IMG/VR virus record: IMGVR_UViG_2526164693_000022
DNA length: 4,340 bases
Reading direction: 5' to 3' (one strand)
DNA from: a virus
Taxonomy: Duplodnaviria; Heunggongvirae; Uroviricota; Caudoviricetes
This document shows positions 1 through 3,000 of the stretch, piece after piece; positions within the stretch are counted from its first letter, which is position 1; each line of letters starts with the position of its first letter. The position numbers are program-made.

Positions 1-3000
1 TTACTCCTCAGGTTCGTAAGCTGTGAAGACAGCGACCTCCGTCTGGCCGGTTCGGATTCGTACCTCGCAGAGGTCTTTCCTCGTTACCAGTGCCGTCACT
101 ATGACGGTTAAACAGATGACGATCAGGGCGATTAACATCGCCTTTTGCTGCTTCATAACCTGCTTCTCCTTGCCTTTCGGCGCGTAAGAGGCTAACCTAC
201 GTTTGTGAAGCATAGATTGGGCCTCAGATTAATGTTAAGCGTCTTGCAGGACGCGTAATGTTAACTGGGGCTTTTCTCTGTCTGCCTTACGGTGGCATGC
301 CCGAGGCAGACAGCCTCAAGCACCCGCAGCAATTCTACTTAACTCTCGCTTTACAGCAAACCGTTTTGCCCGATATGGGAATTCCCATACGGAATGAATT
401 CAGTTCCCCAGGCGCTCCATCAAAAACACAACCAGGCAGTAAACACCCACAACAGCAATAACAGCCAGAGCGCCTTCCATTACCAGTGAAATATCATCCG
501 ACATATTCCCTCCCTTGGTGTGAATCCCGGCGAACGTTTTTACCCCCACCGACAAATAACATATACTAGAAAAGCAATAGCTATAGCAACGCCTGCAAAT
601 GCATCTGGCCGGCTCATTGGTTCTCCCCCTGTGTCGCTTCTACTGCGATCTGACTGGCGTATTCGTTAATGGTAACGATAAGTTCTTGCTCGGCCTCATC
701 CAGACAACTACCGATACCTCGCCTGTCCACTTCAGAAGCATCGAAATCTGCACGAAGCCTGGCGACCTTCAGGATTGCGGACAACACCTCATCAGGGATT
801 GCCGGAGAGTTGGTTGACGTTTCCGAGATTATCCGAAAATTATTGGTTGACGAACCCTTATTTTCCCGAAAGTTTCCAGCCTGAAGCATGGCGGCGCGGT
901 GACACCAGATAATCCAGCCAAGCGCCATATCCCATACCATGTAATCTCTATCGCCATTTTTTGCTCTGCGGCGATCTACAGATTCTCCGAAACGCTTCTC
1001 CATAAATAATTCATAGGCTGCTCGTTCATCCGATACTGCTGCCAGTGATGCCAGCGCAATCCGTGCCAGCTCTTCCGCTTCTTCTGCTGGAAGCACAACG
1101 TTGCTACCCGGTCCGTATGTTTCGCGCCAATGCTGGATTGTCAGCAGTCGATCTTTGGTAATAGTGGTCATAGCTATTTCACCTTAATCTCAACATTTCG
1201 CAGCTTTAGCTCTACTGGCATGTCTGACTTTCCTGTTAATGCTAATGCGAGATTTTCTGGAGTAATGAGAGCAGTTATTGTTTTCCCCATCGCCAGACGA
1301 ATAATCATTCGTATTTCGCGATCGTCACATGCTCCTGGTCGAACAATTGATATTTGTCCGTTCATCTCACTCTCCTTTGATGCGAATGCCAGCGACGCGT
1401 AATGCGTGTTCTAGGTCAATCAGGTAAAGCCAACTGCCATTTTCTTTAGGTATCATGACATGTCGCTCATCTGCATTTATCGGGTGTCCATATCGAAGGT
1501 CGTAGCGAGTCGGTAATTGAACTTCCCGCGCTTCCAGTTCAGCAATACGCTTGCTCCCATCAGAGATAACGCCTTCGTAATACTCACGCTGCTCGTTGAG
1601 TTGTGATTTTGCTTCTTCCAGTCCATCCAGCAAATCAGCGATAATATCCGCTTCCCGATGACGGATGTGACGCTTAAACGCAGCAAGAGCCGCATCACAA
1701 TCCCGTTCAGCATTTGGGCTGTCCGGGGTAGCCTGATACCACGCCAGCGTCGATTGATAGTTTTGTGCTGCCTCACGCAGTGCCTGATAGTCAATCTTGC
1801 CCACTGGCTGCCTCCTTTGCCGGGATTTCTAACTTTTGAGTGGTTGTATCAAATTCAAACAACTTAACCACGTCATCAAACAGGACATAATCACCATCAG
1901 GATCTTCAGTCATATCAGCGCCACAATCCTGACCGCACGAGTCGCAACCTCCCATATCAAGCTCGTATCGCTTCAGGTTCGCGATATTTGATAAATTCAG
2001 CGCCAGTATAGCCAGATCATTAACCTCGTCTGCGATATACCCTGCACCATGTCCATACATTTCAATGCGGGATATGATTTCTTCTACACGTTGTTTTGTG
2101 ATCGTCATTTTTCTCTTCACTCCGATATACAAGGATTACTACACCCCCTCTGCTGATTGCGCGAGCTGGATCCCCTGGTTCCATGCCGTCAATTCCGAAG
2201 GCTTCGAAAAATGCATCCATTGCCTTCTGGCGTTGCTCCTGCTTACGGCGTTTATTCCATTTTTTCATGAACAACAGTGACAGCCATCGTCCGCTGCAGA
2301 ACATGATGTAGAAATAACCAAGGAGCGCTAGGCCGGTGTTCAGGGCTGTATCGATCGTTATCGTGGTGTTGATGTTCACTTCACACCTCTCTGTTTGTTG
2401 ATAAGTTCAATATCCTGCTGGCAACTGGCGCAAGCTCTGCATCCACGAACAGCCAGGCGTCGCCGCTCATCTATCGGATCGCCACACTCGCAACAATGAG
2501 TAGCAGATGGGGCATTACTATCGGATTTGTATTTTTGCAGGGAGAGATTGCGCTGCAATTCTTCGATTTCAGCGGCGTTGTCGATGATATCTGCCATTTT
2601 CCTTTCCTTCAGGCATGAAAAAAGGAGCCGAAGCTCCTTTGGTTTTAGAATTCGAATTGCCTTGCCCGCAGGCTTTTCAGCATTGGTCTGGCCCGCTGAA
2701 CTACGAAACTCGACTGGTCAAGCCGTGCCGCCTCTCTCAGTAGCACATCTCTGTTCTTCGTCACCATGTAGATGGTCTCAAACGCAATGTCATACAGCTT
2801 GTTCGTGTATGAGGAGTTCAGCTCTTTCATGATCGGATACAGGTGTTTGCTGAGGTCCTGGGCTTTTTCCATCCAGAGTTGCATGTAGCAGAGGAGGATG
2901 ATTTCCTCGTCTGTGAATTGTTGCTGTGGTTCTGCTTGTGCCGACTGCATGTTGCGAAGTTTCTTTTCGCACTCGATGAAGTATCTGCGTATCTGTCGGC

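What the first reader, a model, noticed from the sequence alone, without database searches (positions are those of the whole stretch)
400..504. Unannotated 34-aa hydrophobic small ORF with a strong RBS upstream of the hok promoter
A consensus-like SD precedes an ATG ORF encoding MSDDISLVMEGALAVIAVVGVYCLVVFLMERLGN, a single-TM peptide with charged termini. This architecture is typical of small membrane proteins and type I toxins. It falls below the ORF-track length cutoff and sits in a ~450-bp gap otherwise called non-coding. Its position between a phage operon and a Hok toxin locus is suggestive of another membrane-targeting small protein.
Basis: seen in the sequence. Interest (0 to 1): 0.6.

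Follow-up and report, generated by a model that had tools for sequence, protein, structure and literature searches.

The report
Known prophage membrane microprotein beside hok
The 34-codon ORF is a real, translated gene for a tiny single-helix membrane protein carried by E. coli lambdoid prophages next to the Hok toxin locus, but it is already annotated and was already found by ribosome profiling, and nothing suggests it is a toxin.

Summary
Observation confirmed. The ORF lies on the minus strand, 504->400, with an ATG start, GGAGG 4 nt upstream, and one hydrophobic helix.

It is a real gene:
- Within its main sequence type, diversity is 0.004/0.012/0.079 at codon positions 1/2/3.
- Three diverged sequence types give pairwise dN/dS of 0.1-0.4.
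- Each type keeps its own Shine-Dalgarno sequence and start codon.
- All 92 type-1 copies examined are intact.

It is not new. RefSeq annotates it as a hypothetical protein (WP_001278460.1; ECs_5710 in Sakai). Hücker et al. 2017 reported a 94%-identical allele as the ribosome-profiling gene XECs145, with ribosome coverage value (RCV) 4.35 and 99% coverage in LB.

The family is tiny, with 14 cluster representatives among 1.84 billion, all Escherichia/Shigella. It almost always sits directly upstream of a prophage hok promoter, but most hok loci lack it.

The type I toxin idea is not supported. I found no antisense promoter, RNA family or occluding mRNA structure. Net charge is -3, it is the last cistron of an operon, and it is well translated in growing cells.

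Best reading: a non-essential inner-membrane microprotein with an unknown partner.

Also found: a second conserved 25-aa hydrophobic ORF at 617->540, usually unannotated.

The parts
400..504 (-). smORF-B: 34-aa single-helix microprotein gene (ATG 504-502, TGA 402-400). Identical to WP_001278460.1 and in the same family as ECs_5710 / XECs145.
   Evidence: ORF. RefSeq CDS. Codon-position diversity 0.004/0.012/0.079. dN/dS 0.1-0.4 between types. Ribosome-profiling support in Sakai. Helix model.
508..514 (-). Shine-Dalgarno GGGAGGG (GGAGG core 4 nt before the ATG)
   Evidence: Read from the sequence. AAGGGAGGG or AAAGGAGGG is present in all 10 type-1 alleles. Types 2 and 3 have their own AGGAGG/GGAG 5-6 nt before an invariant GTG. 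The SD is not buried in stable structure.
540..617 (-). smORF-A: second small hydrophobic ORF, 25 aa, MSRPDAFAGVAIAIAFLVYVICRWG. Its ATG overlaps the TGA of the upstream 185-aa gene (ATGA). GGGGGAG lies at 629-623.
   Evidence: in-frame 6-nt indel in relatives; 26 alleles; dN/dS 0.14-0.5; 91 phage records. Not annotated in the RefSeq loci.
614..1171 (-). Upstream 185-aa phage gene of unknown function. smORF-A and smORF-B follow it with no predicted terminator in between.
   Evidence: phrog_14306, phrog_660; no terminator-like site in 1-1200.
370..392 (-). Near-palindrome CCGTATGGGAATTCCCATATCGG between the smORF-B stop and the hok -35. It forms an RNA hairpin with no U tract.
   Evidence: -12.8 kcal/mol, z -3.3; -14.5 kcal/mol in 13E0780. 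Retained in loci that lost smORF-B.
332..359 (-). hok promoter (-35 TTGCTG 359-354, 16-nt spacer, -10 TAGAAT 337-332). The hok mRNA 5' end GGGTGCTTGAGGC starts at about 325.
   Evidence: Read from the sequence. Conserved in all hok loci compared. The scan finds the equivalent site in L004.
151..325 (-). hok mRNA leader with the mok start and the sok antisense region
   Evidence: Rfam RF01794, 114.9 bits against a gathering score of 59.
1..156 (-). hok (HokD-type) toxin CDS, 51 aa
   Evidence: Pfam PF01848, E 1.2e-23. Annotated as hokD.

Best explanation
smORF-B is a genuine, translated gene for a 34-residue single-helix inner-membrane microprotein. It belongs to a very small family confined to lambdoid prophages of Escherichia and Shigella. 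It is the last cistron of a rightward early-type phage operon: here the antirepressor operon at the wrbA end of the prophage, and the nin region in Sp6 and EDL933. It is read from a canonical SD/ATG just before the autonomous hok/sok cassette. Shown: the ORF, its SD and start, purifying selection on the protein, ribosome occupancy of a close allele in uninduced cultures, the helical hydrophobic character, and the tight physical linkage to hok. Inferred: it inserts into the inner membrane and acts as a dispensable accessory factor by helix-helix contact with some membrane partner, in the way other bacterial membrane microproteins do. It is not a toxin. Its linkage to hok reflects shared history at the edge of a mobile hok module, helped by the addictive nature of hok/sok, rather than a requirement of Hok for it.
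For: Gene reality:
- All 92 type-1 and 20 type-2 copies examined are open.
- 7 of 9 variable sites in type 1 and 10 of 18 in type 2 fall at codon position 3 (binomial P 0.008, and 0.0015 combined).
- Diversity by codon position is 0.004/0.012/0.079, against about 0.03 in the flanking spacers.
- NG86 dN/dS is 0.12 within type 1 and 0.2-0.4 among types 1, 2 and 3, with Fisher p of 0.001-0.03 in most pairs.
- Types 2 and 3 have unrelated upstream sequence but each keeps an SD plus an invariant GTG.
- The codon-aligned antisense ORF (394-489, +) is broken by CTA->TAG in the commonest allele.

Translation: XECs145 in Sakai shows LB RPKM of 79 (RNA) and 346 (footprints), RCV 4.35 and coverage 0.99. 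In BHI the RCV is 1.14. The paper's thresholds were RCV 0.25 and coverage 0.5.

Annotation: WP_001278460.1, ECs_5710 and UniRef A0A0K4ZJX7, seen on at least 1000 contigs.

Membrane helix; Hücker et al. also predict inner membrane with 1 TM.

Operon position: no terminator-like site between 1 and 1200 and tightly packed upstream genes.

Dispensable for hok: about 60 of 85 loci with an identical Hok lack it, and nine loci (classes D and E) keep only its last codons.
Against: No function has been tested and no partner is known. No Pfam, PHROG, NCBIfam or PADLOC family matches. The footprint data come from one study of a 94%-identical allele in another prophage context (Sp6), in a genome with several near-identical copies. 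No mass-spectrometry evidence was found. The sequences are short, so every dN/dS estimate rests on 27-34 codons, and dS between types is near saturation. Membrane orientation is ambiguous: the N-terminal flank is acidic in type 1 (DD..E) but carries a Lys in types 2 and 3. Type 1 is absent from all 50,697 deposited phage genomes. It may therefore live mainly in defective prophages.
Confidence: 0.8

Rival explanations
1. It is a functional component of the hok module. On this view the membrane microprotein modulates Hok, for instance by damping or potentiating Hok insertion or oligomerisation, or by timing killing during phage development.
For: Linkage is nearly absolute. Among about 112 copies of three diverged types, with unrelated upstream DNA, the hok leader follows at a fixed distance: the hok ATG is 243-246 nt (type 1) or 211-212 nt (type 2) after the stop. 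Only one rearranged Shigella locus lacks hok (L087). The block of homology shared by the types begins inside the ORF and runs through hok. Both products are single-helix membrane peptides. Class-F hok loci carry a different small two-TM ORF at the same place.
Against: About 70% of loci with an identical Hok lack the ORF, and nine loci keep only a 3' stump, so Hok does not need it. hok/sok is addictive, so recombinants that drop hok are counter-selected; that alone predicts 'smORF-B never without hok, hok often without smORF-B'. The gap between the ORF and the hok -35 is only 8-45 nt, a tiny target for recombination. No co-variation with Hok was seen, since the Hok protein is identical across the classes.
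Confidence: 0.1
2. It is a type I toxin or other membrane-damaging peptide.
For: It is small and has a single hydrophobic helix. It sits in a prophage next to a bona fide type I toxin.
Against: No promoter-like site lies on the opposite strand over or next to the ORF, and no terminator was found. No Rfam family covers it. The mRNA around the SD is not more structured than shuffles (z -0.38 and +0.88). Net charge is -3, whereas Hok is neutral with a basic flank. It has no own transcription unit. It has high ribosome occupancy in healthy exponential cultures. E. coli genomes carry up to 5 places matching this region. It does not match Hok/Gef or any other family.
Confidence: 0.05
3. The ORF is translated but has no function of its own. 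On this view its conservation comes from hitch-hiking with hok, or from DNA/RNA-level constraints of the hok upstream region.
For: It is a lineage-restricted ORFan: 14 representatives among 1.84 billion, and 5 loci among 185,579 species genomes. It is often lost without apparent consequence. Overall diversity is similar to the neighbouring spacers.
Against: Constraint at the DNA or RNA level would not spare third codon positions specifically. Positions 1 and 2 are 7- to 20-fold less diverse than position 3. Synonymous differences between types are near saturation while the core ALA..AV..YCL..L.(D/E)RL is kept. hok promoters without the ORF are otherwise identical. Start signals were retained or re-acquired in three different upstream contexts.
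Confidence: 0.1

Closest known systems
XECs145 / ECs_5710 (YP_009502606.1) of E. coli O157:H7 Sakai prophage Sp6; WP_001278460.1 in EDL933
   Same: It is the same gene family. WP_001278460.1 is identical to the window ORF. The Sakai allele differs at 2 of 34 residues (V8A, E30D). It has the same position upstream of hok and the same SD/ATG. It is annotated as a hypothetical protein and was reported as translated by ribosome profiling.
   Different: The context differs. In Sakai Sp6 and EDL933 it lies in the nin region between the replication genes and Q. Here the same DUF551-like gene / smORF-A / smORF-B / hok block sits in the antirepressor operon at the wrbA end of a 933W/Sp5-like prophage. 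Hücker et al. used a longer upstream start (54 aa) that is not conserved.
Hok/Gef and other type I toxins (Ldr, Ibs, TisB, ShoB, DinQ)
   Same: It is a small single-helix hydrophobic peptide encoded on a mobile element.
   Different: There is no sequence relationship and no antisense RNA or leader structure. It is acidic rather than basic, embedded in an operon, and freely translated.
Bacterial inner-membrane regulatory microproteins (AcrZ, MgrB, MgtS, KdpF, CydX; comparison from general knowledge)
   Same: The size (about 30 aa), the single TM helix, the ordinary SD-driven translation and the lack of enzymatic potential all match. This is the class whose mode of action I infer for it.
   Different: It has no homology to any of them, no known partner, and is prophage-borne and strain-specific.
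smORF-A family (MTWPEA..VYSICRWG, 25-27 aa) immediately upstream
   Same: It has the same architecture: a short N-flank, a TM helix with Tyr and Cys in its C-terminal half, and a short C-flank containing Arg. It is in the same operon and also shows purifying selection.
   Different: There is no significant sequence similarity. smORF-A is far more widespread (91 phage genomes including 933W and VT2-Sakai). It is translationally coupled (ATGA) to the preceding gene. It occurs with or without smORF-B.

Membership tests
Bona fide protein-coding small gene | Reading frame kept open in diverged homologues | tested here: met
   All 112 copies of types 1 and 2 are open, as is type 3. Rare frameshifted singletons appear only in the 15-billion-protein collection.
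Bona fide protein-coding small gene | Excess of synonymous over non-synonymous change | tested here: met
   Diversity is 0.004/0.012/0.079 by codon position. dN/dS is 0.12 within type 1 and 0.2-0.4 between types.
Bona fide protein-coding small gene | Conserved start codon with Shine-Dalgarno sequence | tested here: met
   GGAGG-N4-ATG is in all type-1 alleles. AGGAGG-N5-GTG is in type 2 and GGAG-N6-GTG in type 3.
Bona fide protein-coding small gene | Ribosome occupancy | not testable with these tools
   Taken from the literature, not measured here. XECs145 has RCV 4.35 and coverage 0.99 in LB (PMC5597208, S2 Table). That is a 94%-identical allele in another strain.
Hok/Gef family (PF01848) | Match to the family profile | tested here: not met
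   The ORF gives no Pfam or NCBIfam hit, while the neighbouring hok scores E 1.2e-23.
Type I toxin-antitoxin system | Small hydrophobic membrane peptide | tested here: met
   34 aa, one helix, GRAVY 1.40.
Type I toxin-antitoxin system | Cis- or trans-encoded antisense RNA antitoxin overlapping or adjoining the toxin mRNA | tested here: not met
   No promoter-like site on the + strand reads into 400-504, and no terminator was found. No Rfam family covers it at E<=1. A consensus scan cannot exclude a weak promoter.
Type I toxin-antitoxin system | Translation held off by mRNA structure or an occluded SD, with an own promoter | tested here: not met
   The fold is no better than shuffles (z -0.38) and the local SD region gives z +0.88. 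It is the last cistron of an operon with no promoter-like site just upstream. It is well translated in growing cells.
Type I toxin-antitoxin system | Toxicity on expression | not testable with these tools
   This needs inducible expression. The indirect evidence (several copies of this region per genome, high RCV) argues against strong toxicity.
Known anti-phage defence proteins (PADLOC) / phage protein families (PHROGs) | Match to a family profile | tested here: not met
   There is no PHROG hit. The only PADLOC match is a chance-level one, Cmr5 at E 0.027.

The most novel reading that the evidence does not exclude
smORF-B, possibly together with smORF-A, is a dedicated membrane partner of prophage Hok. 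That would make some lambdoid hok loci three- or four-component cassettes, in which a co-resident microprotein tunes Hok killing or phage exclusion. Alternatively, it is a lysogenic-conversion microprotein that re-tunes a host membrane protein.
Probability: 0.12. Interest if true: 0.55.

Novelty: already known. Interest (0 to 1): 0.22.

Why it matters
The finding itself adds little. The gene is in RefSeq and in a published ribosome-profiling catalogue, with unknown function. Three things could be useful to people working on phage or bacterial microproteins. First, roughly a fifth of complete E. coli genomes carry a member. Second, the 29-30-aa GTG-start types and the neighbouring 25-27-aa smORF-A are mostly unannotated. 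Third, the family is glued to the upstream edge of prophage hok loci. It is a clean, well-conserved, experimentally tractable candidate for a phage-encoded membrane microprotein.

Tried and rejected
It was rerun with the 51-aa extended frame.
- Pfam, PHROGs, NCBIfam and PADLOC gave nothing for either small ORF.
- Rfam found only sok and sRNA-Xcc1 in the window, with nothing over the small ORFs.
- The antisense ORF at 394-489 (+) looked conserved by dN/dS because it is codon-aligned with the sense frame. I rejected it because variable sites fall at its first, not third, positions, and the commonest allele puts a TAG in it.
- A + strand promoter-like site at 539-567 points away from the ORF and is not conserved in other smORF-A alleles. 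I treat it as chance.
- A first per-region variability count was inflated by one misaligned locus (L030). It was redone without that locus.
- Homology between smORF-A and smORF-B was considered. By eye only 5-6 identities align among hydrophobic residues, so I make no claim.
- Searches for the peptide or accessions in paper texts found nothing. Searches of the EDL933 translatome and TSS supplements and of a UPEC Ribo-seq preprint also found nothing.
- The recent Hok survey preprint does not discuss upstream ORFs.
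Full report
**1. What is in the sequence**

The ORF reported at 400-504 is on the minus strand. The ATG is at 504-502 and the TGA at 402-400. It encodes MSDDISLVMEGALAVIAVVGVYCLVVFLMERLGN. GGGAGGG lies at 514-508, which puts the GGAGG core 4 nt from the ATG.

Downstream on the same strand come four features:
- a 23-nt near-palindrome at 392-370;
- the hok promoter (-35 TTGCTG at 359-354, -10 TAGAAT at 337-332);
- the hok leader, which matches Rfam sok at 151-325 with 114.9 bits;
- the 51-aa hok CDS at 156-1 (Pfam HOK_GEF, E 1.2e-23).

Upstream on the same strand is a second small hydrophobic ORF, which I call smORF-A (617-540, 25 aa, MSRPDAFAGVAIAIAFLVYVICRWG). 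Its ATG overlaps the TGA of a 185-aa phage gene at 1171-614.

The so-called non-coding gap is therefore fully occupied.

The window as a whole is the right end of a 933W/Sp5-like prophage inserted in wrbA. The first 18 wrbA codons are at 3861-3808 and a ymdF-like ORF is at the far end. On the minus strand an antirepressor-led operon runs from about 3500 down to hok. No terminator-like site was found in 1-1200, and the only two scan matches in 1200-3900 are weak (5-bp stems).

The window is a mosaic of known pieces:

| Window positions | Closest match | Identity |
|---|---|---|
| 1-1060 | EDL933 prophage locus (L001) | 99.4% |
| 790-2389 | Sakai Sp6 | 98.6% |
| 2105-4340 | Sakai Sp5/wrbA junction | 99.7% |

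**2. Is it more than a chance ORF?**

Length alone means nothing, because the window has 77 ORFs of at least 20 aa. Comparative data settle the question.

The region occurs in about 680 of 5,426 complete E. coli genomes. I collected 112 copies from E. coli genomes, IMG/VR prophage contigs and species-representative genomes. They fall into two sequence types:
- Type 1, the window type: 34 aa, ATG start.
- Type 2: 29 aa, MLVLKCALAI[A/T]AVMAIYCLA[V/I]VLMD[R/H]LSD, about 47% identical to type 1.

Every copy is open. An exhaustive HMMER search added a third type, MLAALKGFVAILAVVAIYCLVVVLMDRLSD.

Selection signals:
- Across 43 distinct type-1 haplotypes, nucleotide diversity is 0.004, 0.012 and 0.079 at codon positions 1, 2 and 3. 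Seven of nine variable sites are at position 3 (binomial P = 0.008). The flanking spacers have diversity of about 0.03.
- In type 2, 10 of 18 variable sites are at position 3. Combined with type 1, P = 0.0015.
- Nei-Gojobori dN/dS is 0.12 within type 1 and 0.2-0.4 among the three types. One-sided Fisher p is 0.001-0.03 for most pairs, and synonymous differences are close to saturation.

The three types have unrelated DNA upstream of about codon 6. Even so, each keeps a Shine-Dalgarno sequence at the right distance from a start codon. In type 2 the first GTG varies (GTG, GTC, ATC or TAT), while the second GTG, 5 nt after AGGAGG, is invariant. Type 3 has GGAG 6 nt before its GTG.

The codon-aligned antisense frame (394-489, +) also stays open in the window. 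However, variable sites fall on its first codon position, and the commonest type-1 allele has CTA in the sense frame, which is TAG in the antisense frame. The sense frame is therefore the selected one.

**3. It is already known**

PGAP annotates the ORF as a hypothetical protein in three forms:
- WP_001278460.1, identical to the window, in EDL933;
- WP_001278450.1;
- WP_001278454.1.

The current Sakai RefSeq record calls it ECs_5710 / YP_009502606.1, in prophage Sp6. The exact peptide is UniRef A0A0K4ZJX7 and was seen on at least 1,000 contigs.

Hücker et al. 2017 (PLoS One, PMC5597208) list it as novel gene XECs145 from combined RNA-seq and ribosome profiling of Sakai:

| Condition | RNA RPKM | Footprint RPKM | Ribosome coverage value (RCV) | Coverage |
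|---|---|---|---|---|
| LB | 79.1 | 346.1 | 4.35 | 0.99 |
| BHI | 121.3 | 150.1 | 1.14 | 0.84 |
| Cold/osmotic stress | 73.3 | 1.1 | 0.01 | 0.37 |

Their thresholds were RCV 0.25 and coverage 0.5. [quoted passage not shown]

They used a longer 54-aa frame whose upstream start is not conserved. The SD-preceded ATG is the start used by PGAP and the one that conservation supports.

Caveats: this is a 94%-identical allele in another prophage context, identical duplicates were collapsed in that study, and I found no proteomic evidence.

**4. Distribution and context**

The family is tiny. Only 14 cluster representatives reach E <= 1e-3 among 1.84 billion. Only 5 loci were found among 185,579 species-representative genomes: Shigella flexneri, Escherichia ruysiae and three short MAG contigs that look like E. 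coli DNA.

Type-2/3-like DNA is present in about 620 complete E. coli genomes and is unannotated in the rows shown. Together with type 1, roughly a fifth of complete genomes carry a member.

Type 1 is absent from all 50,697 deposited phage genomes. Type 2 occurs, unannotated, in phages mEp460_ev081, Tritos and Evi.

In essentially every copy the hok leader follows at a fixed distance. The exceptions are one rearranged Shigella locus and three loci where an insertion interrupts the leader just before the hok ATG.

The converse does not hold. Among 85 loci encoding an identical Hok I found these arrangements:
- about 25 loci have smORF-B;
- about 20 loci have only a smORF-A homologue abutting the hok -35, and Sakai Sp5 is of this kind;
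- about 17 loci have a different 59-72-aa two-TM ORF;
- nine loci keep only the last few codons of smORF-B;
- the remaining loci have unrelated DNA.

Relative to the smORF-A-only arrangement, smORF-B with its flanks looks like a roughly 175-bp indel. It is bounded by two copies of AAAACG(G)TT(T/C)GC, the hok -35 region.

**5. How it most likely works**

Shown:
- It is a translated cistron at the end of a phage early-type operon.
- Its product is one hydrophobic helix (AF2 helix over residues 2-33, pLDDT 89.5; best 17-residue hydropathy 2.95).
- The conserved core is ALA..AV..YCL...L.(D/E)RL.

Inferred: it inserts in the inner membrane and acts through helix-helix contact with an unidentified partner, as a dispensable accessory function.

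Orientation cannot be called. The N-flank is acidic in type 1 but carries Lys in types 2 and 3.

I give about 0.9 to 'real translated gene' and about 0.8 to the whole statement, including 'not a toxin'.

**6. Rivals**

*Type I toxin.* The peptide meets the 'small hydrophobic' criterion only.
- No promoter-like site on the opposite strand reads into it, and no terminator was found.
- No RNA family covers it.
- The mRNA is no more structured than shuffles, and the SD is not sequestered (z -0.38 and +0.88).
- Net charge is -3.
- It lacks its own transcription unit.
- It is efficiently translated in healthy cultures, in genomes that carry up to five places matching this region.

*Hok partner.* The near-absolute linkage across three old sequence types is striking. 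But Hok clearly works without it in most loci, and the addictive hok/sok cassette would itself select against recombinants that separate the ORF from hok. The intervening target for recombination is only 8-45 nt.

*Functionless or DNA-level constraint.* This is contradicted by the codon-position pattern and by the independent retention of start signals.

**7. Verdict**

However, it is already annotated and already reported as translated, and the toxin suggestion is not supported. Its function remains unknown. Interest is low.

The most useful by-products are three:
- the usually unannotated companion smORF-A, which is under purifying selection (dN/dS 0.14-0.5) and is present in 91 phage genomes including 933W and VT2-Sakai;
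- the unannotated GTG-start types 2 and 3;
- the documented coupling of the family to the upstream edge of prophage hok loci.

Noticed in passing
window 540-617 (-): A second small hydrophobic ORF, smORF-A (25 aa, MSRPDAFAGVAIAIAFLVYVICRWG). It is ATGA-coupled to the upstream 185-aa gene and has its own GGGGGAG. Relatives of 25-27 aa (MTWPEA..VYSICRWG) show an in-frame 6-nt indel and dN/dS of 0.14-0.5. They occur in 91 phage genomes including 933W and VT2-Sakai. The ORF is not annotated in the RefSeq loci I inspected. A few copies are pseudogenes (L033, L074, L081).
   Followed up: partly
window 370-392: A near-palindrome CCGTATGGGAATTCCCATATCGG, centred on an EcoRI site, lies between the smORF-B stop and the hok -35. 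It forms a stable RNA hairpin (z about -3.3) but has no U tract. It is retained in loci that have lost smORF-B, and a variant in L011 keeps most of the pairing. Its role (operator, RNA element or nothing) is unknown.
   Followed up: partly
window 3315-3403 (-): An Rfam sRNA-Xcc1 (RF02221) match above the gathering score (69.1 against 53 bits). It lies in the leader just upstream of the antirepressor gene start (3274).
   Followed up: no
window 3493-3692: Three features sit near the prophage end: a promoter-like site TTGACA-18-CATACT on the minus strand (3522-3493), a 22-nt inverted repeat (3565-3586 / 3590-3611), and a tandem pair of TGTTTGGGGCA...TTGGGGCAAAA repeats (3637-3661, 3668-3692). 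They may be the control region of the antirepressor operon and/or recombinase arm sites.
   Followed up: no
window 3799-3861 (-) and 4233-4340 (+): The first 18 codons of wrbA are followed by phage DNA, and a ymdF-like ORF lies at the window end. The prophage therefore ends at about 3811, and the window is the wrbA junction of a 933W/Sp5-like prophage. The middle of the operon (about 600-2100) has been exchanged for Sp6- and EDL933-like sequence.
   Followed up: partly
L017, L007, L013 and about 14 other IMG/VR loci, about 60-280 nt upstream of the hok transcription start: A different small membrane ORF occupies the position directly upstream of the hok promoter in another class of prophages. 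It is 59-72 aa with two hydrophobic segments and ends ...GVFMAVMCIEYWR.
   Followed up: no
L082, L093, L143 (hok leader, just before the hok ATG): The same foreign sequence (TGTATGGGTCCACCACATATTGC...) interrupts the hok leader right after the hok SD in three loci. It is probably an IS insertion that inactivates hok.
   Followed up: no
L004 1963-2044, L172 3977-4058: Weak isrK-like Rfam matches (26-27 bits, below the gathering score of 50) lie just downstream of hok, in the region before the rem/Q genes.
   Followed up: no
phage collection versus E. coli genomes: Type-1 smORF-B is common in E. coli prophages but absent from all 50,697 deposited phage genomes. Type 2 is present in three phage genomes and in about 620 complete E. 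coli genomes, unannotated in the rows shown.
   Followed up: partly
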